DNA of 64,000 bases from Marsupella aquatica. Taxonomy: Eukaryota; Plantae; Marchantiophyta. The notes under the pieces were generated by a model that had not been told where the DNA came from, ran no database searches, and was given only the letters and a program-made list of their open reading frames with translations. The position numbers were made by a program, and so were the translations under genes. Each line of letters begins with the position of its first letter. The stretch's first letter is position 1. Positions 2,056 to 62,824 of this stretch are shown here, in pieces. The stretch spans positions 4,888,977-4,952,976 of the forward strand of contig OZ316893.1 in assembly GCA_973895155.1 (NCBI GenBank). The letters are read 5' to 3'.

Positions 2056-4060
2056 AAATTTTAAATTTGATCATGGTCTCCTACAAATGCTCTTGCAGAC
2101 TTTTTGTTTGTGTCTTGGTGACCCCACTAGTGACCGACCACTTGTGACCGGGGTGAGCACAAAAGTGCCAACTTCTAACACCAATCTTATTTCTGAGACG
2201 CCATAAGACCAACTAGTCATCACTAGTCGTGAGTAGGACAATTTAAGACCATTGAACAGCTTAAAAAGCATGATGTATTATATTAGTCATACAAGTATGA
2301 CTACATAGTCATAGTTAGTCTGTTGAGCATAGACCACGTGTCTCTCTGTGATGACTCTTGTGCGTTGGATGGTTCATGGGCTTGCCGTTGCGAATGTTGT
2401 CTATGCTCAACAAGTGGTATCAAAGCATGTCTGGGAGGTGACGAGGTTTTTTTCGTGACAGGTTTTTCCAGTGTTCATTGTCGATGGTACATTCGGAGTT
2501 TCATTGCATGAAACTTGAATGTGTGTGGCTGAGCGGATAGGTTAGTGAGAGGGCTTTCTAACGGTGGTTAGAACTCGCTGATCGGTATCCGTGGTGCGGA
2601 GGAATCAAAGTTTGCATCGTTCAGGTTTTATTCATGTTCGACGGTATTTTGGGGGAGAGACCAGAGTTTGGTTTTTTCAACGGTGTGAGCTGTGCGGTGC
2701 GGGAGGGATCGCACATTATAGCTCAAGTTGAAGGTTGAAGCGAGCTGGTCATTTTGGTAGCTGGATTGTTGCCGAGTTGTTACCGAGTGTGTCATGACAA
2801 GTGAAGGAGGCGTTCAGGTTTTTTCACAAGCTATGGAGCTTGTTCTCATCTCAACCAGGTTTCTCTTCGTGACGTCCGACTCGGTGGAAGAGACGCAAAG
2901 TGCTACGGCTCAACGGTTTGATTGCGGCGAGGGGGTCATTTTGAGCTCGGGATTGGTACTTGACGCGGAGTGAAGGCGATGCGGCGGAATTAATTCACTC
3001 TGCTGGAGCAGCAGACTGTGCCTGTGAAATTCGGCCACTTTTACCGTCGGCGGCATTCACTTTCCTTGTCTCAAACGGCGGCAAGATGTGTAACCAGCAT
3101 TTTTTCCCTTAAAACGGCATTTTTCTGGGTTACTTTAGGGCTATATTTTCCCATGTGTATACACACCTGATTTTTCTCAATTTTTTCTTCCTGAGCCTGC
3201 CTCGCGACGACAGGCTATTGCCGCCGGTCACCCTTTTTTCTACTTGCGCCCTTGCGCTCCAGGTCCTGACGCCCGTATACCCCCTGGGCGTACCCCCTTT
3301 CCTCCCGTATCCGCTTGTACGCGGCCCCATACGGGGTCTTTTTGGTTAAAGGGGCTTAGACCCCCCTTTTAAGCGCAATTTTTGTTTTTTTCCTGGCTCT
3401 CCTTTCATTGGTCATCCCAGGCCCGGTGACCCTCCATTTTAACCGCTTGGATAGGGGGAAAGGCCCCCTGTGAGACCTGTTGGACTGTGTGGGAATATTC
3501 CTGAAAAACATAGAGCTATTTTTTGGCCGTCCGACAAAGATTCTGTCTGCCGAACATTAAGTTTTTTGGTTCTTTTTTGGTGAGGATGTTGCCACTGGAG
3601 TTAGCAACGTAGCGCACCAATCACATCGCGATTTTGACGACGGGTTGTACTAGGTATTTTGGTTATTCTCCAGGGTGGTCAAAATGGGGGAGTTTCCCAA
3701 GGTTTTACCCACCCCGACCAAAATTTGAATAACTTTTCCGTCGAATTTTGATTTTGATTTTGGATTTCAGTATTGGACTCCTAGCTTCGTGGGCTACGCG
3801 GCAGTGTTGAGTTTTGAGTTTTGTGAGAAGTTTCAAAAAAAGATGTTTTTTCGTGATTGTTTCATATGAGTGACTCAGTGGATACTGGAAGAATTGGCAT
3901 CGATGAAGCTTCAGGATCACGACGGTCAGACGGAGAGTCTGAGGAGGAGCTCCTACCGTTTGAGGAGAAACTTGTAACACCGTTACGATCACCGATGCGG
4001 CGTGTAATAGAGGAAGTTGTACTACTACCAGAGCTATCGGTAATAGGGAAGAAGAGGGAG

Positions 4061-7000
4061 ATGGCTAGATTTGGAGGAGTGAAGTTTGAGGTGGAGAAGT
4101 ACAATGGTCGTATTGATTACTTGCTCTGGGAGAAGCAAGTGAAGGGTGTTCTACGGGCCATGGGCTTAGCTCATCTGCTTTCATCGCGAGAGCAATATGA
4201 TGGAGAGGAAGAGATTTATGTGAGATAGTGGAGACAGGAGCAGGTGATTGCTATCAATGCAGTGATGCTATATCTCAAGCCGCACATCATCAAGGAGTTG
4301 GATGATTATGCGGATTGCACATCACTATTCAAGGCTCTAAGAGAGAAGTACTACCGGGAAGATGCGTCAGACCAGCTGTACAAGAAGTCTTTCTTGATGA
4401 GCCTCAGGCTCAAGGAAGGGAGCAAGATGCAAGATCACCTGGATGAGTTTGACAGTCTAGCGGTGGATCTATCAAACCTGGTAAAGGAGTTGAAGATGAG
4501 GATAAGGCCTTGCTTCTACTAAGCTCCTTACCGCCATCATATCAGGGCTTGAAACAGGTGCTCTTGTATAGAGATCTGAAATCCATTTTGTATAATGAGG
4601 TGGTGAGCTCTTTACTGTCTGATGATGCTTAGAAGAAGTTGGGTCAATCACAAACAGCATCTTCTTCTGGCACTGCGCTGAACGTGAACTATGGAAAAGT
4701 AGCGCATTGCACGAATGGGCAGAATAGGTTTAGATCTACATCATGGGGGAGATCTAAATCCAGAGGGAAATCACAAGAGAGGAAGCCTCTTGCATGTTGG
4801 AATTGTGGCAAGCCTGGCCACATGAAAAGGGATTGTCGAGTAAAGGTCCCTACTGCATCTGCTAATGCGGCATTGAGTTTGCATGAGGTATATTTACTCG
4901 ATGATGATGACATATTGTGATGTCAAGGTTATGCTCTCAACGTAGTGTCAAATCCAGGTAGTGATGACTGGATTCTAGATAGTGCATGTACTTTTCACAT
5001 TTGCTCTAGGAGAGATTTTTTCAGTTCTTACACGGTTTCCAACGGGTCAGTGTTGATGGGAAATGGAATCCCATGTCAAGTTGTTATACTTGGATCTGTA
5101 AGATTTCAGATGTCTGATGATGCTGTGAGAACGTTGAGGAATGTGAGACATATTCCCAGCATGATGAAAAATCTCATTTCACTTGGGTTTTAGAAGCAAA
5201 TGACCATCAGTGGAGTTCTGCTAATGGTGTCCTTCAGGTTTCAACTAGTTCTAAAGTTGTATTGAAGGGAAAGAGACATTGCAATCTATACGTTTTGGAG
5301 GGCAGTGTAGTTTGTGATGAAGCCAATGTAACCTTATCTCATGAGGAGACGGTCCGGCTGTGGCACTTCCATTTGTGCCACAAACAAGGAGCCAAAAAGG
5401 ATGGGTAATAAGCCCAAACTAAAAGAACTTTTGCTCCAAAAGCGCAAAAAGCTCAAAAATGCCCAAAAATGAACCTAAAAACTATCCCTTTCTTTGCAAA
5501 ATCTTCATGGATGGAAAAAATGCCCAAAATATGTTATCATTTTGAGCCATTCAAAACATAAAATGGACCATAATAAATTTTTAATCTTCGTATGATCTAT
5601 TTTCAATCTTAACAATTTGCACTTGCACATGTTCAAGTGATCATTTGTCTAGTTTATCCTTAAAATACCATCTTAAAGTTGATTGGAATCAGAAATATCT
5701 AAAACACTTTCAAATATATACTAGAAATTTCAAATGACTCTTGTAATGAATTGTTTGTCTTTATCTATCTCACACAAACCAATTACAATATTATTATTTT
5801 CAAAGTGTAACCCTCCCTTAGAAATGATTCATGAATTCATGAGTTAGTCATTTTAATATTTTTGAATCTCAACAAATTTAAGTAGCAATAGTTACTCCAA
5901 CTCTCTGATTCCCAAATCTCTAATGTTCACATAAGTTTTAGTGGATTGGAATATTTATTTGCATTCACTTAGAAAGAAACTTCATTCTTAATTTTTAATT
6001 AGAACTTTGCATAGTAAAATACCAAAGTTTTCCTAGCATTTATAATACTCTTTGTCTTTATTGGAGTTGATGTTTTCTTGTACTTTATTCCAAAGTAATC
6101 ATTCATTACTCTCTTTGTCTTTACTTGAGTTTGTGTTCCTTGTCAAATTCTTCATCCATAACTCCTTTTGTCTTAATTGAATCATTTTTTGTTCCTTTTT
6201 TTGTCATTTTCTTTGTCTTGAGTAACCTTTCTTTTAATTATTTTCTTTATGTTGTATGCAATTTTTCTCTCTTTTTAAGATTCCCAAACTTGATGCCAGA
6301 TTCCCTTCATGAATTCATGACAAAGAATCTTGGATCAAGATTAAAGAATCTTGAAAACAGGGTTCATGAATTCATGAAGCTTTTGGATACACAAGCTTCA
6401 TGAATACACTAAGCTTAGCTTTTTAAAAGGCAAAGGGCAAAGTTGGGTAACAACAATCCATGATGGAAGATGAGTGAGCTCAGGAGTGAGCTATGATAGG
6501 CACATTGCAATGGGCGAGTTGCGACCAGCTGCGATGGACAAAATGACAACATGTAACCCGTAAAGGGTATAGGACCATGGGCAATTAGCGATTAAACATA
6601 GGTTGCCAAGGGCAATTGAGTGTTGATTTGTGATGGGTGAAGGCTTCTGATCTCTGATGTTGTTAGTGACTTTGTTCAGAGGATATTTTCTTGTAACATT
6701 TAATTTGTTGGTGATCTTTGAGCCCAAAATCCAATGTTGAGACTTATATTGAGGAGTTAAATTGGAAATATTAATTATGAAAAAACTTGTGTCTAAAGCA
6801 TTGTGTTAATTATGGTGTGAAAATCCAAGGTCAGGAAATATTAAATATATGATGATTTTTTGTGTTGTTTTTTTATGACATTTTGGAAAATAAGAAAATT
6901 TTGAAAAAGAGAATTAAGGCCTTGGACCCATCCTTTAAGGCTTCTTGTTCACATGAGTGAAAAAGGTTTGGCTATTCTTCAGAAGAAATGATTACTTTCT

Positions 7001-9713
7001 AATTTGCAATCTTGTAAGTTGGAATTTTGTGAGCACTATGTACTAGGGAAGCAGCACAGGAAACCCTTCGAAGTTGGAACTCACACCAGCATGGAGGTAC
7101 TTGAGTATGTACATAGTGATGTGTGGGGTCCAGCCCCTACTCCCTCACATTTTGGATGGTTATACTATGTCATGTTCATTGACGATTACTCAAGGTATGT
7201 GTGGATATACTTTCTACACAATAAGTCTGATATTTTTGCCACTTTTAAGGAGTGGAAAGCCCAAGTTGAGAATCAGACTGGTAATAAGGTGAGATATCTT
7301 TGATCGGATAACGGCGATGAATACAGTTCCGGGGAATTTGGAATGTATTGTAAGGAGCAGAGGATTACCCGCCATCTTACAACAAGTTATACTCCTCAGC
7401 AGAATGGTGTCTCTGAGAAACTCAACCGAACACTATTGTATCGCTCGAGGAGTATGTTGAGTCAATCATGCTTACCACATGAGTTTTGGGCTGAAGCTGT
7501 CAACACTGCAGCTTATTTGGTAAATTTTTCTCCATCCAGTTCTATTGGATTCAAGACGCCATTTGAAATGAGGTACGAGCGTTCAGCAGATTACTCACAT
7601 CCAAGGATTTTTGGATGTGATGCTTATGTGCTTACACCTTCCCAGCTTTGATCCAAGCTGGAGTCCAAGTCAAAGAAGTCCATTTTCCTTGGCTATCAGA
7701 AAGGTGTGAAGGGTTATAGGTTATGGGATCCAGTAACCTGTAAACTAATTGTCAATAGAGATGTGTCCTTTAATGAATCCAGATCATCAAAGGAGGGAGA
7801 GAGTTCTCAGGACTCCCATACTGACAAGGGGAAATCTCCCATCCCGGACCGGGTTGAGGGGGAGATTAGACATGATGATGTTCATGACAGGAGAGATGGA
7901 GAAGCTCTAGGCTTGGAGCTGGTTCCTGTGATGGAACAAGAGGAGCAGATTGTTGCTGGGGTACCTCAAATTTAGCCAGCAACAGCAATAGATCAGCCTA
8001 AGTCATCTACTAGAAGAACTTTCAGTCGTTCTACTAGAGCTCCTACCAGGTATGGTCAATGGGCAGACTCATCTAAGCTAGATGACATTGACATTGCACC
8101 TGATGATGATGATATGGCTTTGATCTTGGAAGAAGGAGAGCCTTCTTCGTACAGCGAGGCTTGTGCTTTAGAGCAGAAGCATGAGTGCAATGCAACAATG
8201 CAGAGGGAGTTGCAATCTTTGAGTGACAACAAGACATGGGAGCTGGTGGAGCTTCCAAGAGGTCAGCAAGTGATGGACAACAAGTGGATTTACAAGTTGA
8301 AGAACAGTCCTTCAGAGGGTGGAGATAAGATCTACAAGGCAAGGCTTGTTGCCAAGGGGTTCACTCAGGAGAAAGGAGTGGACTACAATGAGGTCTTTTC
8401 ACCAATGACTAAGTATTCCACAATTCGGATCTTGTGTCAACTTGTTGTGTTTTTTGGTGTGGTGATGGATCAGATGGATGTTGAACATTACTGCTTTTCT
8501 CTATGGCAACTTGGAAGAGTTGATCTTCATGAGACAGCCACTAGGCTTTATGAAGAAGGGCCAAGAGAACTTAGTTTGCAGATTGCTCAAGTCCTTGTAT
8601 GGATTGAAGCAGTCTCCTAGATAGTGGAACAAGCGATTTGATGATTTCATGTTTGCTCAAGGTTTTACAAGGATGGTGTATGATCCTTGTGTGTATACGA
8701 AATCAGTCAAGAATGATGTGTTTGGTTTCATCATTCTGGTTATTTATGTGGATGACATGCTGATTGTGGCTAAAGATCAATCTGAGGTTGACAATCTCAA
8801 GGCAAAATTGAGTGCTGAATTCAGGATGAAGGATCTTGGTAAGGCCAACAGGATCTTAGGGATGGAGAGTTTTAGGAACTCTGAGACTGGACAGTTGCGC
8901 TTGAGTCAAGGCCAGTATGCGAGGAAAGTACTTGCACGATTCAACATGGAGAATTGTAAGCCAATGAGTATTCCTTTAGCTTCACATTTCAAGTTATCAT
9001 CGGCTTTCTCTCCTACGGATGCTGTGGAGAAAGGTTCGATGGCTAAGATTCCTTATGAGAAGGCAGTAGGCAGTCTGATGTATTTGATGACTTGTACTAG
9101 GCCTGACTTGGCCCTAGCGATGGGCAAGGTTAGCAGATTCATGTCAAATCCAGGGAAGGTACATTGGGAAGCTGTGAAGTGGATTCTCAGGTATCTGAAG
9201 GGAACACAAGACTATGGATTATTATTTGATGCCAGATCAGATAGAACGTTGGTTGGCTATGTAGATTCTAACTATGGAGGCTGTCTGGATACAAGGAGGT
9301 CTACAACTGGGTTTGTATTTACTCTTGGAGGAGGATGTATCAGTTGGAAATCTACCTTGTAGAAGTGTATATCTCAGTCTACTACAGAAGCAGAGTATGT
9401 TGCAGCAGCAAAAGCAGCCAAGGAAGCAATTTGGTTGGACAAGTTGATCGCGGAGATGGGTTTAGAGCATGGCAAAATGACTCTAAACTGTGATAGTCAG
9501 AGTGCTCTTCACTTGGCTGCTAACCAGGTGATGGATAGCAGGGTGAAGCACATTGATATCAGGTACCATTTTATCAGGCAAGCAGTGTCTGATAAAACTT
9601 TTGAGCTAGTCAAGATTGATGGAAAGCTCAATCCCGTTGATGCCTTTACCAAAGTGATTCCTTTGGAGAGTTTCTCAAGACACCGTGCTACTTTGCAGGT
9701 TTTGCAGTTGTAG
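4061..9713 (+). pseudogene. Copia gag-pol polyprotein, broken by stops, frameshifts and a 1.57-kb insertion
   Basis: Gag KFEVEKYNG; Zn knuckle CWNCGKPGHMKRDC; protease WILDSACTFH; integrase HSDVWGP, FIDDYSRY and TPQQNGVSE; RT YKARLVAKGFTQ and YVDDML; RNase H CDSQSALHLA...KHIDIRYHFIR. Confidence 0.95.
5383..6949. mobile_element. Non-autonomous AT-rich TIR element inserted in the copia GAG-pre-integrase region
   Basis: Splits the LWH..L.H|MSEKGL motif. Imperfect ~24-bp TIRs (left AACAAGGAGCCAAAAAGGATGGGT; right, reverse-complemented, AACAAGAAGCCTTAAAGGATGGGT). 4-bp TSD CACA (5379-5382 and 6950-6953). Confidence 0.85.
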
Positions 9714-9922: not shown

Positions 9923-10275
9923 TGTTAGATATTGCTCTAGTCTTGTGACTCATGAGCTAACCACAGTTAGTCTAACTCGGGTTAGGACTTAGCTAATGTT
10001 AGCGGTAGTGCTGTTGTGCATATAGCCAGGGCTGATGCCAGACCCTGGTGGAACTTAGGCTCATTGTTACGGAGCTAGTTGAGAGATAGAGAGAGCTTGT
10101 GTTGTGGATGCTTGGTATGGCCGGTCGGCCTAGAGTGTAGTAAAGCTCTTGTGTGTTCCTGTGAACGTAGCCTGGCCTCATGTGGAGGTGAACCACGTAT
10201 CTCTCTGTGTTGACTCTTGTGCGTTGGATGGTTCATGGGCTTGTCATTGCGAATGTTGTCTATATATGCTCAACA
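9923..10275 (+). repeat. 3' LTR of the copia element (353 bp)
   Basis: Follows the PPT and runs TGTTAG...CTCAACA. Its last ~80 bp match 2335-2412. Confidence 0.9.
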
Positions 10276-19830: not shown

Positions 19831-20448
19831 GAACTGAAGTATCATGCCCTCTTCTTTCTCAGGTTTGCGTTGCATTACATTAGGTAACTAACCCTTGGCT
19901 GCCTCTCCTGTATTGGGTCTTTTATATGCTGGTTAGGAGCCTCGTTTTTCTTTCTGAGACTCCTGGTTGGGAGCCTTTTGTTCTTCTGGCACATTGTAAT
20001 ATATATATACACGTCACCTAAGTAAATGGTACTGATGCGCTTGTACTAGAGGGGGTAGTACTGACATCAGTGTCGCGCTAGAAAGGAAGACAGGGGAGCA
20101 TGTGCTTCGTGACAATGTCGGTCATGAAAGGGAATGCCACGCCCTGTGAAGGACTGTGGAAAATCTAAAATAGTGGTCACTTCTTGTAGACTTTCTGCTG
20201 AAGGACGATGCAAGTTTGTTTTCAGTCTGTAGATGTGCTTCTTGGGAATTCCCCTCTCTTTATCAGGTCTGCCATAGCGTACCTAACACATTGTGAACTT
20301 AAGTTGATCTACTGAGTCCTGACATCACAGAGTGTTGCGCCCCCAGGCACTCGCATTTCCAGGAATTGTACCCAATTATCACGTAGAAAACCTGTAATTT
20401 CTGCGGCTTCAGACATCGAGAAGAGCTCCAAGCCTAGGTGTTCACTGC

Positions 20449-20790
20449 ATAGGTTTCACGCTGTTCGATCAAGTCTGGTTCGCTAACTCGATGATCCCAC
20501 TGGTTCGAACTGCCCTGTGCGAGGGAGCCCTTACATCATTGCACTGAACTCGTGTGGAGAATCCACGAGTAGGTTTCACGCCGTCCGATCCAGTCTGGTT
20601 TGCCAAACTCGACGACTCCTCTGGTTCGAACTGCCCTGCGGGAGGGAGCCAATCATTATGGCAGACCTTTGTTGAGAATATAAAGGTTCACAGCGTAGAT
20701 TTCACGCCGTTCGATCCAAGTTGGTTTGCATCCCTGATTCAGCTGGTTCGAACTGCCCTGCGCGAGGGCGCTTTCATCATGGCACTGAGG
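20449..20790. repeat. Three ~120-bp degenerate tandem repeats
   Basis: Units start TAG(G/A)TTTCACGC at ~20450, ~20570 and ~20696. Each contains CTGGTTCGAACTGCCCTG. Confidence 0.9.
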
Positions 20791-21953
20791 ACTCGTGTAA
20801 TCGTGTTGATATACATGGCAACGGGAATAGGAATGAACGTAAATGTTCGTGTCCGAGGAACGTGTGGGAGGCGAGCCCTACTGAGCATGCAATCATCGAA
20901 TACAATCTAATGGTGAAGTAGCCGTCCATTAGAGCAACGTGGTCAAGAGATAAGAAAGCGAATTTCGATGACAATAGAGACAGAAATTCGCAGGGCTTGT
21001 TGTTATGGCTTATTCGTGTAGATCTAGTGATCGATTCGCCCGTCCAGTAAGAGACCACAATATCAACTCCCACAAACCAACTGGTGAGTGCTGAGTTGTT
21101 GATAATCTGCACCCAGCTCACACCTGCAGTCGTTCAAGAAACTTCTACAGTACAGAATCATGTGGGTGTCTTGTTTCATCAAAAAGTCGTTCATCTCCGG
21201 ATGAACCGGGCGGGACTGAGTGGAATGATGAACATGCCAACTGGCTGGGCGATTGAGAGAAAGTAGAAATATCTCAGTAATTTCGGTCACATTCGAAAGG
21301 GCGGTCAGTCTCAGAAATTCGCTCCACCTGCTAGGAATTTGAGTTCTCATGTCTGGTATTAACAAGTATCACTGATGCGAGGGGAACAGTACCTAATCTT
21401 CTGTCAGCCTCCCATAATAAGTCTTGTTGTCATCTCACGATAACCAGAGACTTTACCTACAGATTTTGCTGAGACAGCGGAGTACTCCACCAGCTTTGCT
21501 CACAGACTTAACTTGCCTGAAGAGTTTGCTGTTCCTTGGAAAGGGGGAGACGGCAGAGTACTTCACGAGCAACTCTTTGAGCCACGTCGATCAGTGTATT
21601 ATTGTTGGAGAGGACTTTCCAGTCCGCTCGAAAGAATCCGTTATTGTCGTTTTACTACTTTAGTTTGTTGGAAACTCGATTGAAAGCATCACTCCCGCGA
21701 GCTATCTAAGACTGCAATTGACGTGCAGGATCGAAACCGCTAGAGAAGAATATCATCAGTAGAACGGTTCTCTTGAATTAAGTTGTAGCACAGCAGCCTT
21801 CACGTTAGCAGCATCAGCCGACGATGAGTAGCGAGGCAGGATGAACTGGAGGAGCGATGAAGTCGAATTAATCTTAACTGATTTGCTCCTCAATCTTCCT
21901 TGGACATATCTCCGTAGTCGATAATCATCACTTTCAGATAGTCGACCACAGGC

Positions 21954-23820
21954 TTATTGGCCAAACGTTAAGCAGGCGGAACATGAACGCATGGTTGCGT
22001 CGGTCCTCTTCGAAATGTTCGAAACGTCAGCCAGCACATCCTCCTGCGTTCGACTTCGACAATTCTTTGTGTTCTTCGATCGAGCTGACCAGCTCCTCTT
22101 AAGAATCCTGTTAGAGGCTCTAAGATCTTCAGTGTGTAACGGATCGGCCATCCTGATGTATTGTCTGGGCTCGCAAAGATCCTGTAGATTACCAAACAAA
22201 TCTCATCAGAACTCGCCAAAGCTACTCCTCTATCCACAAGATCCAAGCGTCCCATGGCTTCCAGAGTTCACAATCTGAAATGGGAGAAGCGGAATTGGAA
22301 GACCCGTGATCACGTGAGAGATAACAGGATTGTAACCAAAGAATTGCCCTTACCGAATGAAGATCAAAGAAAGCTTTGTAGCCTCCGTGCAGTATGTACA
22401 TGTGGGGAAAGGCTAGTGCAGGATAGACTTCAATGTGTCGCTGTCTGTCCAAATTCCTCATATGCCGAAATCTGCGCATTGCAGTTGTACTGAGTTACAT
22501 TTCACCACGAACAAAAACAAGAAGAGTTGCGTGATCTCAAAGACGCAATGTAGTAACCAAATTTCAGGAAGTAAGAAGTTACTCGCAACGACAACTGAAC
22601 TGAGAACTGTGGTAGCCAGTTCATTGCCTAATGCGAGATTAAACTCACAGTTTCGGGGCTCTTGCGGATGAAAACTCGCAGTGGAGAATTATGACCATGT
22701 CTTTTCCCTTCTCCAAGTTTCTGGCGTAGAACTCCTCTATGCAATTGGGTCCATTAAGATTTACAGCACCCTGGGGCAACATCAACAGGGACAGAACACT
22801 GTCATCAGTCTAATTCATGCATGCAATAAGCGTGCTTAGCGAGAAATGAGAAACCGGTCCAGCAAAGTTCTCTTCGTTACACAAGCAAACTTGAAGCAGA
22901 AAGCATCTGGGATAATCAGTAGAGACCACTAGGCTAGTGGACGTGCATTTGGGGGCAGAATACTAGCCAAGGAGGGCGACAGGAACTCTCAATGCATACG
23001 AACCAACCTGGAACAGGACACCTGAAGGATATTCGTTCCCTTTCAAATATGTAGCTTAAGACACAATCGCAGGTGTCTGACGGATGGAAATTACACTACA
23101 GAGACTTAAATCAGATAAGAGCCTCATGATAAACGATTTGGATCTTATTCCGTGCTTCTAGGCGAAGTGCAAGAAGGACTCGGTTGTGCTTCCGGTATAA
23201 TAGAATTCACGATATTGCAGAACAGAGGCCGAGAATGGAACTGACATTTATGTGTCCACCGCAATATTCGAACTTATGCCGAGTGTCGATGATGACAATA
23301 CTCTCCTTGGGAATGTCACGCTCCCCTGTCAAGATGGACTTCAGCTGCAATGCGGGAAGAACTGTCAGAAGGAAGCGACAATTGAAGGAATCTGTATGAG
23401 ACAAGAGTGTAATTCCTTGCTACGTTTGTCAAGCTTCGCAATTACGGGTGAAGAGAAACTCACAAGATCGGGGGAGACACTAGGAAGTTCGCAATGCTCC
23501 ACTAGTGGGAACAGGCCCTTCGCGACGTCTTCGAGCAACTTGAATGGCGATGGCTGCTCTTCCACGCACAAGGCAGGGGACCTCTGCAATGCTTTGGGAG
23601 TCTTGTTGACGGCTGGACTGGAGATCGTTGCCTGGTAATGGAACGAAGATAGTTCCGAAATGGACGATGGTGATGGATGGTCTTCCACGCGTGGAGCAGA
23701 GGACCTCTGCACTGCTTTGGGAGTCTTGTTCACACCTGGACTACATATCATCGGCTGATAGTGGAATGAAGAAAATTCTGGAATGGAAGAACCAGAGGTC
23801 TTTGGCCTTGCGACCTGCAT
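21954..23820 (-). CDS. CDC25: Canonical Cdc25 / M-phase inducer dual-specificity phosphatase (~307 aa, 5 coding exons; start codon uncertain)
   Basis: Exons 23820-23464, 23344-23246, 22770-22649, 22471-22354 and 22181-21954 join in frame through GT-AG introns. Product: SVSPDLLKSILTG...IIDTRHKFEYCGGHINGAVNL...VIILHCEFSSARAPKLFRHMRNLDR...YPALAFPHMYILHGGYKAFF...LCEPRQYIRM. SP/TP-rich N-terminus. Confidence 0.9.
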
Positions 23821-26800
23821 TGTGTAGCGTCGACACCTCAGTCACTTATCGGTGGTCGAAGATGGGGTACCACCACCAAGAACTGATTCGCGTCAAGAAG
23901 CCATGCCCTGTAGTCAGTGACGATGCCCTATCGACTGCACCAAAGGAATCCCTTCCTGCATCCGTCTAAGACCAGCATTGCAAAGGCTGCAGATCATATC
24001 ACGCTCGAGAGATCCATCTTGCTCAAAACCTGCATTCGGGTAAGGAGGGCTGTGAGCTAGAGGCAGAAATCTCCAATAGACCAGCTAGGATAGCGTACAT
24101 TCATTGGTGTGAGCGAACTCAATTGAGGTGCAATGAGACAATGCAACACAGTGCTAAATTACATCAACAACATAGGGCGTCCCAACAATGCACGCAACGA
24201 GTCTCTCAATTCGGTGCTTTACAGGTAGCACTTCGGCATTGGTCACGGGCGACGCCTCCACTTTCGACGAACGTTCACTCGCTTGGCATACATCAGAGCA
24301 GAGCCGCGGATAGATGTTGTTCTTGAATCTTCTAGTTCTTGACCTTCTAAGCCACTACCTCAGTAATAATTGACTGCGACCGCAACACGGACATGAGAGA
24401 ATTTGAAGCACAATCGCGTGGGATTGCCTTCGTTTCCACGTCGAACATACCACATTGGCAACCTCCAAAGGGTATCACCAGCGCTATTCGCACACAGTTC
24501 CCCTTCCGAACACTGATAAGCTTCTCCCAGCAGCCAAGATCCAAATCAACGTGTCGCAACAAAAGCTTTCTCTAGGATCCCACTACCCGGCCCATGTATG
24601 ACACAAACGCATTGTCCAACCCATCTATCGGTAACGGAGTGCTTCACCGCTCTGCCCCAACAAAATGCCTGTCAAAGAGGCCTCCGGATCGGCTGGGCCC
24701 AGGCCAGAGCAACCAAATGCTCCGAAACAAAAGCGAACATTCATCCACACCACAATTATAAAATCTACTTCAATCCGTACCTGCTCAAAGTGCAACGGGG
24801 TTCGCACCCGGAAAACATCCGTCCAATCCAATCCAAAGATGTGCTCGCAAAGAGAAAGAAACGCTTTCTCGATCATACTTACATTTCCGTAACCTTGCTT
24901 GCCGATCGATCGTAGCTGCAATGCGTCCGAGCAACCGAAACGAAGACACATCAGCTGACGAAGCCAACCCCAGCGGCAGGCAATGAGGAATCTAAAGCCT
25001 GGTGCATACGCAGCAAGTCCTCCTCTACGTGAGAATCTAAAGCCTCGTACGAAACGAGTCCAAGCCAAGCGAAGGCGGAGAGCCTTGTGGACTCTTCTCT
25101 TTCACACAAATGGGAGAATTCTTCCAGCATCGAAAGCGCCTCCGAACAAAAGCCAATCCAAGAAGGCAAGAATGGCAAATCCAAGGAAAGCCGAAGCTGT
25201 GGGAGACAAGACAGCCTTATGCGCTTCGCAGCTGCTTGCTTTCTGTTCTTACATCAATGGGAGAATCCGAGATGAGGGCACAACGCCTACCGAAAGCCCA
25301 TTCTGCCCGTAGCAGTAGTAGTAGTAGTCGTAGAAGTAGTAGTAGAGTAGTTCCTTCTTTAGTTCTCTGGCTTCTCTGCTCTCATGACCAGACGGATTTC
25401 TAGTCGATTATAAGTTCTGCACCGACAGGAGCGGAACGGCAGCGGAGGAAGGGCGTTTGCAGGGGAGGAGGAGGCAGCGCCCGACGCCCCGACAGTACCG
25501 GAGCGCCCGGTTGACGGGATCGATGGCTCGCGAAAGGCTCGCCGGAGAGTAACAGAGACCAGTAGAATGATGAGAAAGAGAGCAGTTCCCGGTTGGCACA
25601 CTTTCTGGGAGCGGGGTGGTGGGAGCGTATAGGATTTTTGAATTTCAAGTACGGATGTGGATACTCCGTCAATCTCGCATTTTTCTTACAATACGGAACA
25701 GTACCGTATTATTAGTTCACCCCGGAATTAATTAATGGGATATACGGACGCGTCCTGTCGCCGACTGACCCGCGGGTTTAGACGTTGAGACTTGAGAGGC
25801 GATCTTGGTGACTAGCCAAACAGACAAACTGTGAGTCAATGGGGGGATTTGGAAGATTAAATTAAGTAAACTGTCTTTGTGTCTGATATGAGAGATCATG
25901 TCATAAGCAGGCTTTTATGAGCTGAATCCTCATAAATTTGCCTGGACGGAGCAAATATTCTTGCTTATTGGTTTATTACGAACTTAGCTTTAATTAAATA
26001 ACATTCTCCGCCCTTGGTTTGAGTCTACCTGGATGACCCATTGAAGGTGATTCGACTTTCTTGGATCTGCCTGTCCGCTTCCAAATACACTGCCCTTGGG
26101 ACCATCAGGTTAGCGCATGCACTAAGCCAAAAGCTAATATTTGTTTCTTTCTTTTCATGCTGGAGAATGCCATAAACAATTTCTTTGAAATTTGCTTGGT
26201 TATCTGCAAAGTATACTTTAATAAATTAGGGTTTCACATGAAAATAGTTGAAATACTCCTAAAATATGAAAAAAACCAAAAACAACAACCAAGGGTGCAC
26301 TACAAAACATACTCAAGTTCTTGCACGATAGACTGGTATTGTAGGGAAGAGGCCACCTAACAAGCCCAGGCTCCAGTATTCCCGGAACCAGTGTATTTTA
26401 TAAGGATTTTACTTTTTGGCCAGAGGCTAATGTAAAGTGTGCAAAAGAGATCCTCAAAAGATTTTATTCAATTATTTTCCTTACAGTCAGATTTCTCTAG
26501 ATTTAAGGTTGATTGTTAGATACTGGCTAATGGGGCATGTGATTAGATGGAACACTGACTAGTCATACAAAAAAATAGCAGCAAATTTTTTCCAAAAGTG
26601 GCAAAATGGGAGGTGGAATTTGGCATTTTACCCAAAAAAAAAAATTGCTGCCTCGATCCAATTTTATGTCCTAGGAGTGGTTACTTCATTGTGGCACTGA
26701 GCCCACTACACCTAAACTCTACATGTTGCTTTGCTTTGGCCTTCTTTGGCCTAGTGGTCCAACCCATCGGTGAGTTTACTTTAAAATAATTAAAAATTGT

Positions 26801-43123: not shown

Positions 43124-44959
43124 ACAGCACGCAACTGCATTGAAGAAGATCCGCCTAAGCGTCTCATCGTCCGGGTACTTATGCTGACCTATGGAAGTTC
43201 ATTCACATCAGCAAGTCCTTGATTGAAACTCATTCAACTTACAGCACTGAGAGAACTGGGCCTGTAAGTTGACTAGTGAATTACAAGAATAGTTCACTTC
43301 TTACTTGAGCACCATGACACGGGCAAATTTCCTCTTCTGCCCATCTCCCAAGGTTTATAGGATTTCATATAGCTGAGAATGCCACTGCTTCGGTTGCCAG
43401 CTCACAAGGAAACGAATTCGACATTCTGAATATCTGAGTCAGAATTGGAAAATTTGAGACAGCAGATAAGTCTGTAAATGCATTACTTTGGGCACTGCTT
43501 CTATTGAATACGAATGAAGGTGTGCGTATTTTTGGGCATCATGATCTGATGTATGAATGAGATTGAAATGAGAATCGATACGCTGTGCGATGCTCTGCTT
43601 CTTTTCAGTGAATTTCGCATCAGTAGGTCTCTCAGTGGTTTTATGCTTCCCGTAGAGTCCAAATGGCTCCCCGTTAATGATCGCATGTCTCACGTGGATA
43701 AAGAATTCTGCTCTTTTGCCCGACGGGCTGCATTCCGTTGGGGTGGATGTACAATGGGACAATATCTCCGCGTTCTCATCCTCGCCATCCAGTTGTCTGT
43801 GGCGAAAAACTTAATAAAGAAATGTGGTGGACCTGAGTTTGAAAGTTGGATAAGTTTGGTGCCCTTCATCATATCGAGTAGAAGCCCTAACTTGCCGACC
43901 CAAAGACGACTTTCAAGCACTACATTAAATATGCTTCGAACTCTGGTTTGGGAGGCTATGAAATATGACTGTGAAGTTCTCCATTTCTGCAGAGCTGCAT
44001 TGTCATTTGGGTTAGTGTTCTACAGTTTTATCGACTGCTTTTGGTAAGTTGCTGATGTAGGTTTTGCCACAGAGTTTGCGAACGAGTCAAATTCGAGCTT
44101 CATGGTCTGAAGAACAAGTTTGGAGCTGGTGCAAAGAAAACCCTGTGTGATTCACCGGTCGCTTGAACCCTTTCTTACCGCCCAAAAGTCGTTCAATTGA
44201 ACAATGCACCCCTTGAGATCTTCTTACTCCCTTGTTTTATTTGTATTCAGCTGCGGTTGTAAGATCCGCTGTGTTGGTCACTGCAACGTAATTCTAACAT
44301 ACTCGCCAGTGGTCTGTGTTGCTGAATATACTCATGAAAGGCGTGGACATTGATAGCAGCCACGGAGTGGTCACTAGTAAAATAAGGTTGATATACTAAT
44401 TCATTTTGATACCAACAGACATTACTTCGGCTTTTAAAACGCCGTGTATATCACACGGGCAACTGCATTGGATTGGAGTGGTCTTCAGAAAAATCTGATT
44501 GATATAAGAACCAGTCTCTATCAGGTAAGATCTGAAGTAGGACTCCTAGCTGCTCCTAAGTCATAGCTGGTGAACTGCCCCATTGCCAGTTTCGTTATGG
44601 GCTGTCGTATATAGCTTCACCTTGTTGACCGTGTTTACGCAGCACGGTCACAGCAAAACTGATGAATATTTCGATCTCTTGTTACCGTATCAGGGTTGCC
44701 AGTTACTTACACAAATCAACCAACTCATTAGGATTCCTGTACAAGCATTCAAGCTACAACTTAGAAGACAGACACCATGTTTTCTTAAGAGAAAAAGAAG
44801 CTCCTGATCATTTCGGAGCGACCCTGAGGCTCTCAATGTAATGTAGACCCCATTTGCTAAACTGAAAGTAATAAAGTTCAACTACAAGCGGTGTGAGAAT
44901 ACCCGGAAATTTTTACGCTTTCTACAAATGGAAACTGTCGATAAATTAACAAGATCTTG

Positions 44960-45690
44960 CAAGCGCCTGACGGGTTTGCAGAAAGGGAGGTTGATTTACA
45001 CGGACCAGTGTTCTCTCCCTCCATCAACCGAATCAGCCCATCAACCTTGTCTGAAACATAGCAGAAGCTGCAAGTTTGAGTTCCGGGAGCTTGTACTGTC
45101 AAGTCTTGTTCCGCAGAGCTTGGGCAAGGAATTTACTGCCAACACGTCCGTCGTCGATATTCATCCGTGGGCCATAAGTATTAAAGATCCAAGCAATTCG
45201 GATTTCAATGCCATGGTGAAGGTGTTAGTCAAACACGAGGGTCTCCGCCACTCGCTCGCCTTCATCATAGCAGCTTCGATTGGATTCACATATCCCCAGT
45301 AGTACTGTCTGGGAGTGCTCCAGAGGATCACCGTACACCTCCGAAGTTGATGTCCATAAAATCCTCGGCCCCACTCATTCAACCCAAGCATATTCAACAT
45401 GCCCATGACATTGGTCTTGATGGTCTTGACAGGATTGTGCTTGTAGAAAATGGGGGAAGCGGGGCACTCCAAATGGAATATCCGGTCAACCTCAACGAGT
45501 AGGGCTTGAGTGACATGATGCCAAATGAGCTCAATTTGGGTGCCCAATCCAGCGTTTCAGATTCCCCTTGGATCCGGTGAAGAAACTGTCCGCCACAAAC
45601 ACCTCAATTGACCCAGCTTCCATCAGGCGATCCACCAGGTGCGAGCCGATAAACCAGCTCCCCCTGTAACGAAAATTCGCAGCTTGGCCG
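44960..45690 (-). pseudogene. UXS: Processed (intronless) pseudogene of UDP-glucuronate decarboxylase / UDP-xylose synthase
   Basis: [67 protein letters not shown] and TQTCSFCYVSD.VDGLIRLM are contiguous, with frameshifts and no introns. 3'-truncated. Confidence 0.9.
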
Positions 45691-46935
45691 TCGTGCATTG
45701 GGAGGACCGGAGTGGAGGTGGGGTCGGAGGAGCCTTGTTGTAGTAGAGCTATGTCCATCGGCACTTCCACTCATCATGGTGCTTTGTGTCGAAGGGAATC
45801 ACAGGATCTGAAACAGAGCCTGCGGATTGTTGCAACATCTTTCCTCCCACAAAACGGATACAGATTGCAGCAACCCAGTATAGGTCATCTACTCTCTGCT
45901 CTGCTTCACTCTCGAGAGGCAGACACCAAATACTTGGTAAATCAGAACCCCCTTTCACGCCATCCCTGTCAAACTTACATCTAAAGCTTGAATTTTAGAT
46001 TCCTAAAGAACGTTCTTCTGGAGGAGACGAAGGATTCTAAACTTCCTTCGTAGCGGTTCTGCAGGAGGTTACGGCAAGCGTCACAAGCCGAACTTGGTCT
46101 GTTGGAGATGAAGTTGAGTACATGTCGTGCCCGCAAATTGTACAAGGCTTCAGGTGCCTTTCCCTCTTGAGTTGTCTGGCAGTGCTCAATTCAGCGAAAC
46201 ATGAAAACAGAAGACATTGAACGAGAATTGCGTGAGGAGTAAAGTGAAGCAGCACACTTGGCGCAGCTTCACAGAAAAGCACCCACAGGTGCTTAAACTG
46301 TAACCTGAATTCACGTTTCGTGTGGGCAAGAAGGTACTGATCCAGCACAGCACAATTGTCATGTCCCCACATCATAGACGCACCGAGACTGGGAGCACAT
46401 GATTCATCACGACCTTCAATGGAGACTTCTTGGTCGTCCTAGATTTCGAGGTCTTCGTCATCACCCTTTCTAAAACTCTGGACCCTTAATTAACCCCTCA
46501 AACTATATCTAAAGGGGATCTGATGGTCAGAAATTAGTCTATGAAAATTAGATAAGGAGCATTCCTAGCATCTTCTCCTTCACACAAGACATTGGCACAA
46601 TGGGAAAAAAAGAAAAAACCTTAAAAATTATGCCGACACTGGGTAGTAAAACGATCAAATCCTCAACCCTTAGTAAGGAAGAAATCGCATGTGGCAGCAC
46701 TCTTTATTTATGGTGGCGTTACAAGACTTCGTATGTTGCACTTGTGAGTTTTTCTCCACCAAAGCCTACAGTCATTGCAAGGTTGCTCTTACCTCAAACT
46801 AACTGAGTACTCGTTCCTTGATCAAAACTACGGGTGAGTACATTCAAGCCTGCCATGCCATGCTGTGTCGATTCCTTGAACAAAAATATAGTTGAGTACA
46901 TTCAAGCCTGCTGCGCCATGCTGTGTGGGTTCGTT

Positions 46936-47264
46936 CTCCTGTACAAATGAGGAGAACCGAACTGAAGTGAGGTGAAGAATATGGTGAAGAATCTGTGCAT
47001 CATTCTGATTACTCAATCTCCTGTACAAATTAGGAGAACCGAACCGAAGTGAGGTGAAGAATATGGTGAAGAATCTATGCATCACTCTGACTACTCAATC
47101 TCCTGTACAAATTAGAAGAACCGAGGAAGTGAGGTAACCGAAGTGAGGTGAAGGTATGGTGAAGAATCTATGCATCACTCTGACTACAATCTCCTGTACA
47201 ACTTAGGAGAACCGACGAAGTGAGGTGAAGAATCTGTGCGCGCATCACTCTGACTACTCAATCT
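46936..47264. repeat. Four ~82-bp tandem repeats just downstream of KNOX2
   Basis: Units start CTCCTGTACAA at 46936, 47018, 47100 and 47191. Confidence 0.92.
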
Positions 47265-47551
47265 TCGTCCAAGGACAGTGTCGTTTAACTTTATAACCGA
47301 AGAGTTTGTGGACAGCTGCAAAGAGAGCCCGAGCGAAGCTGTAGAGATATATGTACTCAGTAACTATTAGTTTGTGAAGTCTAGCACGTGGGCGTGGACC
47401 GACAGCTTACTAGGATGACATAGCTTTTTTATACACACGTTGATCGAAGCTTAGAATGTTGCTGAATCGAATTGTACTGTAGCTCTTTCACCTGAAGTGC
47501 ACGTCTCAGAATCTCGTGATCGATCATTTGATATGGATAATCACCTGATAC

Positions 47552-50500
47552 TCAGTTTTTCCGTTTATTCTTAAGCTCATTTGATGAAGGCAAGGGGTTG
47601 CTGTGCCAGTTGCGCTTGCGTTGGTTAATGAACCAGTTGTTTACCTGCTTCAATTCGAGTCCTGTTTCTTGGATCAGACGTTCCTTCTCATCTTCCTGCA
47701 ACCATCCCCAGCATTTCAGCAAAAGTAACCGCCACCAACAAGGTGAAACGAAAACTTCAAGCCCCTATCCCTGAAACGGACTGGAACCTCAGGTAAGTTT
47801 CCACAGTTCGGGCAGTTCCATTAGCTGGGATGATAGAACAAGTTGCACAATAGCATTGAGGTCGACGACAGAATCTCAGATTGATCTACACGGACAAAAA
47901 TTAACAACCCTTGGTGCTAAAGGAGGTATCATACGACGTTGTATATGAACATTTAACTAGCGGACTCAAATTGACAGGACTATACAAATACTGTGCAGGT
48001 CTAGCATGCAGTCATTATACAGTATTGGCAAGATAGTTCGGAAGAGAAAGTAGGACAATTTATGATAATTAATTAACAATAATAACGAGGTATATCATAC
48101 AGAAGAATTATGCAAACACCAACGGGTATAATACTCTATATTTCAAGCTCAAAAGTACTGCGTTCAACATCCACATCAATCAGTGGAACGACGAATAAAA
48201 ACGACAATTGATCGGAACTTAGCAAAGTCTCATCTCATATAAGAAATTCAAGAGCCGGGACACTGTACGTTGTCATCAAAATCGCTCTGTATACAGTGAC
48301 CCAAATCCCTTGGCACCACGAGCTCAAAATAAAGATGTGAGCATTATTGGATTGAAATATCGATCCACTCTGACACCAATCTATGACTTTTGGTGATAAG
48401 ATATCCACAGAACCATCCATCCAAATTATTTATTGCCTGAGGATTTTCTCTTCTATTGGACATCAGAATGGAAGATCTAGCATTCCAGTGTCCTACATGA
48501 CGCAACGGGGTTGACCAACACAGTCGGCATTACTCGAAAACAACTCCAAGCACGGAAAAGGTGTTCTGTTTCGTGCTTCTTTTGGGCGTGGGGTATTTGG
48601 GTGGCATGATGAACACTGTATGGATAATTAATTATGCTCAACTCGCAGCAAGTAGGCTCTAAGCAACCCACCAAGCCGAGCCCTCAGCTCGGCCCTCAGA
48701 TATAACGGCTCACACGGCTTGGCTATGAAAGAATAAATGGAAGAAAATCCCATTCAAGTCAAGAAAGCTTGCAGGAATGACGTTCAGGTGATGCGAGTCA
48801 CTAGCTCGTTTCATGGAAATGTTAGAGCTGGAATTTAGCTCTGACACCGCAAGGCCGTTTGTAGATACACGATCCCTGACACTAAGTTAACTAGGAGGTC
48901 CACGTTTGATGTCACTAGAGCTGAGACTATAGTTTAATTTCCAGTATATCTCTAGCTTTGTACCGCTGCCCCATTTTTGAATTGCTCTTCAATCAAGGAA
49001 ACGTTTGACAGTGGTCCAATGGTCCATCTCTATGGGATAGTCTGTGCCAATCATTCATTCAGTCAAGCATAGATTCGTTCAGCTTCAAGGCGGTTTCAGC
49101 AAGTCAATGCAAAGAATATTTCTCCTAACGGATGATAAACTGTAAGCGCGATGCGGGATTTCAAGAGTTCTGACAATTCACCCCAAAATCTGACTCGATC
49201 TTCTGGAGGATCAGACAATGTTTTTAAAGACTAGCAATTCTGACCTTTGACAGAATTGGAGCTTGACTGCAGAAGTCAGGACCTGTTGCATCAGTGATCA
49301 TGCCCTTCCACACATCTTTCCCCGTCAAAAATGGCAGCTATAAGCGAAATTACGAGATCAATACCCGGATCAATATCTCCCAAATAGCTGTCCGTTGACA
49401 ATCCTAATACTTAAGGGGGGGAAATGGCTCAAACTTGGGAGGACCATTTGGCTACCAACCCAGCGCGCCTGTAAAAGGGTTTAAGAACTCAGATAGATTC
49501 TCTCTCACGAAGGATTTCGTGAGGATCCTGCCAGGTAGAAAGAACAGTCTCTACTTACGTGAAATGCTTCACGTACTATTATAGTTTTGGACACTGGAGG
49601 CATGACGATTTCTGCAGCGTTCTTGGGCAAAGGTGAGAAGAAATCACTAGATGATAATCGTCAAAATGTGGCACTTCCTGACCTGACAGTGGTATGGTAC
49701 CGCCAGATAGTCAGGGATTCCTTCGATACAGCGACTGGCGAACTATTCTATCGGGGTATAATTCTGTCTTGGTACGTTCCTCGCAGTAATTTCCATGTTG
49801 TAATATATAACAGTGCGTTTCCCCTGAAAAGCATAAATTCGATAACTCAATGGACTGTATTTGAAAGTAATGAAAGTCTGGATATACATACCGTGGGATA
49901 AGGCCACTTTGAGTGAGCATTCCACCAGGTTTTCAGCACAGTAGTTGTTCCTTCAGGTAATTTACCTGCCCTTCGTTTTCGAAGAATCTCGTCCCTCACG
50001 TCTACGATCTTCTCCCTATACCCTTGCTGAGTCAAACCAGTAAAGATGGATCCGAATCAGACTGGTACTCCGCCCGTGATTATGAGATAACAGAGAACAG
50101 CTTTACAATAATCTCATGAACGAAAAAATAAACACCGCTGTGGATTTCTGAAATCAAAGACAGCTGAAATGAAATACCAGATCCAACGAACATCATGAAG
50201 AATTTGAGTACTCCGCGAAGGATTGGTGGAGACTTATCATCAACTTTGGTTTCACATCGTGTTTATATCATGCTGAAAGGTTGAGAGATTGGTCTTTAGG
50301 GCTTTGGAATTCATCGAGGCTAGCTGCCACGGCTCGGGATTGAAACATGCCGGATATTGTTTTTGTTCTTAAAGATCTTGAAAGCTTGAACGCATTCTAA
50401 ATCTAATTTTGAAGAATTACGTGAGTGAGTCGAGCTGTAATCTCTAGAGTCCTGATAGATCTTTGGCAGCTTGACTTAAATCTGTTCCAACACTGAGTCG

Positions 50501-53024: not shown

Positions 53025-53399
53025 CGAAGTTCTTGCAACACACCTCAGAACATGGGTTTCAGCTTGCTTTCTGGGTACTTAGGAACAACTTCAAGCCCCA
53101 GATCTAGGTCATCCCTTCGGTAGGAACGTCCTGCGCACACAGACGAAGCTGGTTTGTCAGAAGAAGAATTCCTGTCCATACACCCTACGTCACGAATTTT
53201 GCAGACAATAAAACTGCAAGTCCGAAAGAGGGCCTTCTTGTCTGGGGTAGGTTGCAGGCAATGGACACCAACTTCTCATTGCACTCTGTTCAGCCTGCGC
53301 GCACATTTCTACTGGGTTGGGATTGACTGTTCCAAAATCCGAGAGAATTCCGGATCATGATTTACGTTGCTCATCCTGCACATTCTCGGGATGATTGTT

Positions 53400-62200: not shown

Positions 62201-62824
62201 TGCTATATTAATGCGGTAGTGATGTTTGACATATGAAATGCATCATTGTCATAGGCAATGCTTCCAGAAGATGTGGCCGAATGGAGCAGTGACGATGGGA
62301 TGCCCCAACTGGATCTTTCCCGCTCTGATTTGGACGCTAACAACATTGTATATAAGAAGCGTGTCCTTGTTGAGAAGGACCCACCTCCGAACACTAGAGC
62401 AAAGGGTAAGGGTAAGGGTAAGGCCCCATGTAAGAAGCCTGCTAAGAATTCTGAAACACAAGGATAGAGACAGGGCTTGAGGTCTAGGGCCAAGGCCACA
62501 CCGGGAAGGAACACCTCCATCGACAGCCAGGTTAGGCACATTCATATGCTATCTATTCAATGTTCCAAGCAAATTCATGTTCTTTCCTTTGTATTATGGA
62601 ATGCGACTCTTTGTACTTGTGTGCAGGAAAAAACTGTAGGTCCTAACAGATCGTCTACACGGAAGAGAAGGCCAAGAACAGCCAAGAACCAACTCAAAAG
62701 AAGCTAAAAAACATCAACAACACTCTCCATGTACATCACATTGTCTTTGCCTTTATTCCAAGACCTCCTATCCTATCGCAATTTTGTATGATGTGTTTCC
62801 CTATGCCATTCATACTAGGCATGT

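What the first reader, a model, noticed from the sequence alone, without database searches (positions are those of the whole stretch)
21954..23820. Intact canonical Cdc25 phosphatase in an apparent land-plant (bryophyte-like) genome
Seen: five exons splice in frame to give the full animal/fungal-type Cdc25 catalytic signature (IID.R..FEY.GGHI.GAVN, HCEFSSAR, LDR, YP.L..P.+Y+L.GGY..FF, CEP..Y..M) plus an SP/TP-rich N-terminal region. Established: angiosperms are thought to lack canonical Cdc25 and have only a short rhodanese/arsenate-reductase ACR2-type protein with a different active loop (HCALSQxR), while Ostreococcus and some streptophyte algae keep a canonical one. Inference: this lineage retains the Wee1/Cdc25 G2/M switch, so its loss happened later within land plants. 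The same CRE-like repeat family flanks the gene on both sides, which argues against fungal contamination. I cannot tell whether bryophyte orthologues have already been catalogued.
Basis: partly seen in the sequence, partly recalled or inferred. Interest (0 to 1): 0.85.

Follow-up and report, generated by a model that had tools for sequence, protein, structure and literature searches.

The report
Liverwort canonical Cdc25 cell-cycle phosphatase
This is an intact five-exon gene for an animal/yeast-type Cdc25 phosphatase, in what is likely a leafy liverwort, that likely switches on the mitotic kinase; such genes were reported in bryophytes in 2026, but two relatives annotated in Ginkgo suggest that the reported loss in all vascular plants is likely too sweeping.

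Summary
Five minus-strand exons (23820-21954, all GT-AG) give an open 307-aa frame with the catalytic loop HCEFSSAR and all three CDK-docking hotspot residues of human CDC25B. RNA-like contigs of a relative skip all four introns. Its catalytic domain is 89% identical to Calypogeia fissa proteins and 73% to Marchantia MpCDC25_1. It groups with bryophytes, and grouping with fungi is rejected (AU p=2e-6). The novelty claim fails: Romani et al. (Plant Cell 2026, PMC13237563) already report canonical CDC25 in bryophytes (MpCDC25;1, G2/M-specific), and this scan noted the same gene type in Sphagnum earlier. Activity on CDK is inferred, not shown. One by-product is not in that paper, which says the gene was lost in vascular plants but names no gymnosperm. 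I found two consecutive Ginkgo biloba gene models (Gb_10572, Gb_10573) and two unnamed sister clusters with the full canonical signature inside the streptophyte clade. If genuine, canonical Cdc25 reached seed plants. The window gene is a new member of a known kind; the Ginkgo lead is the part worth following.

The parts
23464..23820 (-). Coding exon 1 (aa 1-119): ATG at 23820, low-confidence S/P-rich N-terminal region, start of catalytic domain
   Evidence: in-frame stop 7 codons upstream of the ATG; low pLDDT for this region in the close homologue P0002
23544..23789 (-). 123-bp tandem duplication (2 copies, 78% alike) giving a 41-aa repeat in the N-terminal region; also in Calypogeia fissa and P0002, not in Marchantia or Riccia
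23539..23550 (-). SPFK (S91), the only full CDK consensus site; kept in the 4 other liverwort-clade proteins checked, absent from the Sphagnum-cluster protein
23345..23463 (-). Intron 1, 119 nt, GT-AG
   Evidence: skipped in X1 contig
23246..23344 (-). Coding exon 2 (aa 120-152) with the IIDTR...FEY.GGHI motif (Thr where most canonical Cdc25 have Cys)
22771..23245 (-). Intron 2, 475 nt, GT-AG
   Evidence: skipped in X1 contig
22649..22770 (-). Coding exon 3 (aa 153-193) carrying the catalytic loop
22660..22683 (-). Catalytic loop HCEFSSAR (HCX5R; C183, R189)
22472..22648 (-). Intron 3, 177 nt, GT-AG, phase 2
   Evidence: skipped in X1 contig
22354..22471 (-). Coding exon 4 (aa 193-232) with R198, R202, Y209 (equivalents of CDC25B docking hotspots R488, R492, Y497) and the GGY motif
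22182..22353 (-). Intron 4, 172 nt, GT-AG
   Evidence: skipped in 2 X1 contigs
21954..22181 (-). Coding exon 5 (aa 233-307 and TAA): CEP..Y..M motif, C-terminal helix, basic tail
23821..24027 (-). 5' leader part of the first coding exon, with 5 upstream ATGs opening frames of 3-27 codons
   Evidence: X1 record 3 covers 23460-24027; uATG list
24883..24918 (-). Small upstream exon, likely untranslated (approximate ends); a further exon lies from about 25088 upward, boundary not resolved
   Evidence: X1 joints 24027/24882 and 24918/25088; GTAAGT donor and CAG acceptors

Best explanation
This is an intact canonical-clade Cdc25 gene, nearest to Calypogeia proteins and likely the leafy-liverwort orthologue of Marchantia MpCDC25;1, whose product likely removes the inhibitory phosphates that WEE kinase puts on CDK-cyclin complexes and so likely promotes entry into mitosis. 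Shown: open spliced frame, HCX5R loop, docking residues, placement among bryophyte proteins, closest solved relatives human CDC25A/B/C. Inferred from human CDC25: R198, R202 and Y209 dock the CDK-cyclin away from the active site; R189 holds the phosphate; the C183 thiolate attacks it and the phospho-cysteine is hydrolysed. Inferred: the substrate is CDKA and/or CDKB; the short S/P-rich N-terminus with its liverwort-conserved SPFK site receives CDK feedback phosphorylation; expression peaks at G2/M as reported for the Marchantia gene. The role is likely modulating (timing, checkpoint recovery) rather than essential.
For: Gene model and intron skipping in a relative's RNA-like contigs. BLASTP of the model: 84% to C. 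fissa P0001, 65% to MpCDC25_1, about 40% to the animal and fungal proteins; catalytic domain 89%, 73%, 63% (Sphagnum cluster), 41% (frog), 40% (Arthroderma). IQ-TREE, 28 rows: window with C. fissa and P0002 at 100/99, with liverworts and the Sphagnum cluster at 92/94; window plus fungi rejected, p-AU 2.3e-6. PDB by sequence: P0002 hits human CDC25 at E 1e-29 to 4e-26 and Leishmania ACR2 at 8e-8; MpCDC25_1 hits CDC25B at 9e-34, Arabidopsis 1t3k at 0.0018, yeast Ygr203w at 0.045. The model of P0002 ranks 14 human CDC25 entries first (E 2e-14 to 3e-12), then ACR2 (3e-7). Hotspots R488/R492/Y497 named in PMC6270710 (passages) align to R, R, Y in 12 of 12 streptophyte-clade proteins checked (Tyr is 2 residues further out than in CDC25B). 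MpCDC25;1 is G2/M-specific and MpWEE overexpression arrests growth (PMC13237563, passages).
Against: No enzyme or genetic test exists for this protein, and I saw none for MpCDC25;1 in the paper's main-text CDC25 passages (supplement unreadable). No RNA run of the window's own organism was listed; splicing is shown only in a relative. The N-terminal region is short (about 100 aa) and close homologues match no M-inducer_phosp domain. The Cys of the DCR motif, present in 242 of 313 distinct proteins held (30 did not parse; the set is redundant), is Thr here. The folded protein was P0002, not the window's own. No ACR2 sequence was in my trees. [quoted passage not shown]
Confidence: 0.75

Rival explanations
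1. The enzyme is an active Cdc25 but is used in a special programme (spermatid-forming divisions, spore germination, recovery from DNA damage) rather than in the general G2/M switch. That would explain repeated loss in plant lineages.
For: Reported absent in the vascular plants sampled by PMC13237563 and in Chlamydomonas; transcripts also accumulate in dormant spores; Sphagnum-cluster and Ginkgo proteins have almost no N-terminal region (234 and 190 aa).
Against: MpCDC25;1 is G2/M-specific in the single-cell data and follows canonical cell-cycle genes.
Confidence: 0.17
2. The protein has drifted to another activity, such as ACR2-like arsenate reduction or a non-CDK substrate.
For: Same rhodanese fold as ACR2; DCR Cys replaced; about 40% identity to tested CDC25s.
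Against: All three remote CDK-docking residues kept; 20 or more orders of magnitude closer to CDC25 than to ACR2 by E-value; Marchantia has a separate Arabidopsis-type copy, MpCDC25;2.
Confidence: 0.05
3. The window's copy is a decaying duplicate that is not expressed.
For: A second similar stretch exists in the DNA runs (X2 record 5 on 23431-23520, 12 differences in 90; same loose ends in X2, X4, X5). No RNA of this organism was laid.
Against: Open frame, canonical splice sites, short end branch (0.03), indels between related runs listed only outside coding exons among the rows shown (31 rows not shown).
Confidence: 0.02
4. Fungal or animal contamination, or recent transfer, on a chimeric contig.
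For: None specific.
Against: Orthologues on chromosome-scale contigs of C. fissa, Marchantia and Riccia; tree and AU test; runs X4 and X5 from another study hold the intron-containing gene; KNOX1, KNOX2 and Homeobox_KN exons in the same window.
Confidence: 0.01

Closest known systems
MpCDC25;1 of Marchantia polymorpha (NCBI 'protein MpCDC25_1', P0003; PMC13237563; Mp4g01900 in PMC11799827)
   Same: Same clade, 73% identical catalytic domain, identical HCEFSSARAP loop and docking residues, same SPFK site, similar length (301 aa).
   Different: 41-aa tandem repeat in the N-terminus (also in Calypogeia and P0002); Thr instead of Ser at the DCR position.
Calypogeia fissa unnamed proteins CAM6085758.1 and CAM6091881.1 (P0001, P0018)
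   Same: Nearest named relatives, 84% and 83% over 302 aa; already in NCBI.
   Different: Loop reads HCEFSFAR; longer N-terminus (327 aa).
Human CDC25A/B/C (PDB 1qb0, 1c25, 3op3, 8roz)
   Same: Rhodanese fold, HCX5R loop, hotspots equivalent to R488/R492/Y497, C-terminal helix.
   Different: No large M-inducer_phosp regulatory region; Ala at the residue before the loop Arg (Glu in CDC25B; this position varies widely); DCR Cys replaced.
Arabidopsis 'CDC25'/ACR2 (PDB 1t3k), Leishmania ACR2 (2j6p), yeast Ygr203w (3fs5)
   Same: Same rhodanese superfamily with a cysteine loop.
   Different: Far weaker match (E 0.0018 to 1e-7 against 1e-30); a separate clade in PMC13237563.
Ostreococcus tauri CDC25 (Khadaroo et al. 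2004; seen only as cited in PMC13237563 and PMC4143559)
   Same: Green-lineage canonical CDC25 reported as functional.
   Different: Sequence not retrieved under that name here, so not compared.

Membership tests
Canonical Cdc25 (M-phase inducer phosphatase) | Rhodanese-fold catalytic domain most like CDC25A/B/C | tested here: met
   on the close homologues P0002 (90% identical domain) and P0003
Canonical Cdc25 (M-phase inducer phosphatase) | HCX5R catalytic loop of the HCE(F/Y)S..R(A/G)P type | tested here: met
   HCEFSSARAP, C183/R189
Canonical Cdc25 (M-phase inducer phosphatase) | Remote CDK-docking hotspots (CDC25B R488, R492, Y497) | tested here: met
   R198, R202, Y209
Canonical Cdc25 (M-phase inducer phosphatase) | Groups with the bryophyte canonical clade that includes MpCDC25;1 | tested here: met
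   92/94 support; no ACR2 outgroup in the tree
Canonical Cdc25 (M-phase inducer phosphatase) | N-terminal regulatory region with CDK phosphosites | tested here: inconclusive
   Short, SP/TP-enriched (p=0.005), one full site; no PF06617 in close homologues
Canonical Cdc25 (M-phase inducer phosphatase) | Dephosphorylates CDK pThr14/pTyr15; rescues yeast cdc25 | not testable with these tools
   needs bench assay
ACR2/Ych1-type rhodanese (Arabidopsis 'CDC25') | Closer in sequence and fold to ACR2 than to CDC25 | tested here: not met
ACR2/Ych1-type rhodanese (Arabidopsis 'CDC25') | Nests in the ACR2 clade of a joint tree | not tested
   no ACR2 sequence was returned as a stored protein
CRE-clade non-LTR retrotransposon (flanking repeat) | RT or restriction-like endonuclease remnants | tested here: inconclusive
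   no Pfam hit in flanking ORFs, no recalled motif found; only a 70% DNA repeat of about 100 bp

The most novel reading that the evidence does not exclude
Canonical Cdc25 was not lost at the base of vascular plants: it survived into seed plants. Ginkgo biloba has two consecutive gene models (Gb_10572, Gb_10573) and an unnamed sister group (P0180, P0181 clusters, 20 sequences, one of them on 71 contigs) keeps the full catalytic and docking signature. The loss would then be specific to flowering plants, with separate losses in the lycophyte and fern sampled, and the gymnosperm enzymes, which have almost no regulatory N-terminus, would mark the last stage before the plant cell cycle was rewired.
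Probability: 0.75. Interest if true: 0.6.

Novelty: new member of a known kind. Interest (0 to 1): 0.33.

Why it matters
For the window gene: it adds a Calypogeia-like leafy liverwort to a bryophyte distribution published in 2026, which is a small gain. The long-standing question of how plants enter mitosis without Cdc25 becomes testable in liverworts, but that opening belongs to the Marchantia paper. If the Ginkgo lead holds, it moves the loss from the origin of vascular plants to within seed plants and implies several independent losses. That would give natural comparisons (with and without the enzyme) for asking what replaced the Wee1/Cdc25 switch.

Tried and rejected
No whole genome is held for the window, so the second copy, WEE and CDK genes could not be sought. 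No RNA holder was listed for the window's own organism. Single exons are too short for a significant Pfam hit (Rhodanese E 0.048). An upstream extension of the frame like that of P0002 was rejected: the window has an in-frame stop 7 codons before the ATG. A DRxxHxxxYP motif looked plant-specific but occurs in 119 of 304 parsed proteins (313 distinct, 9 unparsed), including molluscs and a coral, so it is not diagnostic. The 54-row careful tree did not finish; the quick tree was shown and a 28-row subset was run carefully (rows dropped were mostly unnamed or near-redundant, chosen by me). The Atlas search for the Ginkgo protein gave only animal-dominated rhodanese/M-phase-inducer clusters and nothing on plant range. 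tblastx self-comparison gave mostly spurious summed hits. Paper searches for CDC25 with Ginkgo, gymnosperm+WEE1, conifer, and the phrase 'M-phase inducer phosphatase' with gymnosperm genera listed nothing on a gymnosperm canonical CDC25, but I saw listings only (20 of 114, 5 of 5, 15 of 25, 25 of 11,819) and the last was swamped by genus names. The Cycas genome supplement has one 'CDC25' row (Arabidopsis 1, rice 2, Ginkgo 1), which I read as the Arabidopsis-type group; 2 scanned files were not searchable. No complex prediction was run: no CDK of this organism was in hand.

Full report
Observation. Translation of the minus strand and a splice-site listing gave a five-exon model: 23820-23464, 23344-23246, 22770-22649, 22471-22354, 22181-21954. 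It has 924 nt, 307 aa, no internal stop, and four GT-AG introns of 119, 475, 177 and 172 nt. Contigs of run X1, listed as RNA by guess and from a relative, skip all four introns and two further introns upstream (24027/24882 and 24918/25088), and have no depth in intron 2. The same run joins three KNOX exons on one record, so it behaves as RNA. Run X2 holds 21700-25800 in one contig with no difference and may be the source of this DNA, so it is not independent. X4 and X5, from another study, hold the intron-containing gene with few differences. The N-terminal 117 aa carry 8 SP/TP against 3.3 expected (p=0.005), partly through a 123-bp duplication. The 'CRE-like' flanking repeat reduces to a 70% match of about 100 bp on both sides with no protein evidence.

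What it is. Exon 3 alone found a Calypogeia fissa protein at 93%. A search with that protein's catalytic region found 17 proteins among 92 candidates, led by MpCDC25_1 and two Riccia proteins, then animals and fungi at about 40% (names). The window's domain is 89% identical to C. fissa, 73% to Marchantia, 63% to the Sphagnum cluster, 47% to Klebsormidium and Ginkgo, 41% to frog and 40% to Arthroderma. In a 28-row IQ-TREE tree it sits with C. fissa and P0002 (100/99) inside a liverwort-plus-Sphagnum group (92/94); forcing it with fungi is rejected (p-AU 2.3e-6). The 177-row FastTree and 54-row quick tree agree. Against solved structures, close homologues match human CDC25A/B/C at E about 1e-30 and ACR2-type proteins at 1e-7 to 0.05, and a model of P0002 ranks 14 human CDC25 entries first (whole-chain pLDDT 59, domain blocks 72-97). 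The window also holds a KNOX gene (KNOX1, KNOX2, Homeobox_KN; class II by my recall of the motifs) and a decayed copia element. The host is most likely a leafy liverwort near Calypogeia (inferred from the gene itself).

How it likely works. The loop HCEFSSAR gives C183 and R189. The remote hotspots that PMC6270710 names for CDC25B (R488, R492, Y497; passages read) correspond to R198, R202 and Y209, kept in 12 of 12 streptophyte-clade proteins checked. By analogy with human CDC25 the enzyme would dock on CDK-cyclin, take the phosphate from Tyr15/Thr14 onto the cysteine and hydrolyse it, reversing WEE. The single full CDK site SPFK is shared by all 5 liverwort-clade proteins examined and could carry positive feedback (inference). 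Two departures: the regulatory N-terminus is short, and the Cys of the DCR motif (242 of 313 distinct proteins held) is Thr here, Ser in Marchantia and Sphagnum, Thr in Klebsormidium. That this Cys protects the active site from oxidation in human CDC25 is my recall; the review I searched did not mention it. No step of catalysis was tested.

What is known. PMC13237563 (I read sections 6 and 15 and passages; supplement not readable) states that streptophytes have two CDC25 clades, one homologous to the canonical enzyme, 'lost in vascular plants', and that MpCDC25;1 is G2/M-specific. PMC11799827 already uses the name MpCDC25_1 for Mp4g01900 (one passage).

The by-product. A profile of 8 sequences (7 liverwort-clade plus P0006) run over 1.84 billion representatives ranked, after the query's own members, Mesotaenium, Sphagnum and then Ginkgo biloba Gb_10573 (E 1.9e-64), ahead of all animal and fungal hits (best 150 of 3,699 seen). 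A further search added Gb_10572 (90% identical domain, consecutive identifier), Klebsormidium, and two unnamed clusters P0180 and P0181 of 15 and 5 sequences on contigs of about 1-1.5 kb, 62-63% identical to Ginkgo (best 120 of 875 seen). All four keep the loop, the three hotspots and the DCR Cys; Gb_10573 matches human CDC25A at 2e-34 and Arabidopsis 1t3k at 0.32. They form a clade (97/95) within a 14-row streptophyte group (88/85, not starred), but outside bryophytes plus algae (81/83) rather than beside bryophytes. Land-plant monophyly is not rejected (p-AU 0.39; group named after seeing the tree); joining them to fungi is rejected (0.006) and to animals only marginally (0.046). The methods of PMC13237563 name Ceratopteris, Selaginella, Amborella and Spirodela but no gymnosperm, and the words gymnosperm, Ginkgo, Cycas and Picea do not occur in its main text; the methods passage does not name all 27 species and Fig. 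1c was not visible. Against the lead: I saw no DNA, introns or neighbours for the Ginkgo models; the sister clusters are unnamed, so calling them gymnosperm is a guess from the tree; no named cycad, conifer, fern, lycophyte or hornwort protein appeared among the rows I could name; the literature check was shallow (listings; zero hits in the main texts of the Cycas and Ginkgo genome papers).

Verdict. Real, intact, canonical-clade Cdc25 of a liverwort; a new member of a kind reported in 2026. Probability that it acts as a general CDK-activating phosphatase at G2/M about 0.75. Interest 0.33, most of it from the Ginkgo lead (probability 0.75, interest 0.6 if true).

Noticed in passing
proteins P0026, P0179 (Ginkgo Gb_10573, Gb_10572), P0180, P0181: Canonical Cdc25 gene models in a seed plant, plus two unnamed sister clusters, against the published 'lost in vascular plants'.
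   Followed up: partly
window 47552-52219 (-): KNOX homeobox gene (KNOX1, KNOX2, ELK weak, Homeobox_KN exons); last three exons joined in run X1. A long ORF at 52368-53078 upstream may be its N-terminal exon.
   Followed up: partly
window 23431-23520 and 47305-52163: DNA runs hold a second, roughly 87-90% identical copy of part of CDC25 exon 1 and of the KNOX locus at similar depth; may be a duplicated or hybrid genome. C. fissa also has two CDC25 proteins on different contigs.
   Followed up: no
window 23821-24027 (-): Five upstream ATGs in the 5' leader, all closing before the main start (3-27 codons); could limit translation. Not compared with chance or with relatives.
   Followed up: no
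window 3857-9710 (+), flanked by related repeats near 2333-2404 and 10192-10263: Decayed Ty1/copia LTR retrotransposon (gag, zinc knuckle, protease-like, integrase, RVT_2 pieces in several frames).
   Followed up: partly
window about 44900-45750 (-): Broken fragment resembling an NAD-dependent sugar-nucleotide epimerase/decarboxylase (weak GDP_Man_Dehyd hit, E 0.015); RNA-like contigs of related, deeper-covered copies map here at under 95%. Likely a pseudogene; UXS identity is my recall.
   Followed up: no
window 20440-20798: Three tandem copies of about 121 bp (75-87% alike) 1.2 kb downstream of the CDC25 stop; no other copy in the window.
   Followed up: no
window 53465-54738; 46935-47233; 62640-63457: Dispersed short repeats upstream of KNOX, an 82/91-bp tandem array downstream of it, and an acidic low-complexity repeat ORF near the window end.
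   Followed up: no
protein P0006 (unnamed): Canonical CDC25 sister to Mesotaenium (97/96), likely another conjugating alga.
   Followed up: no
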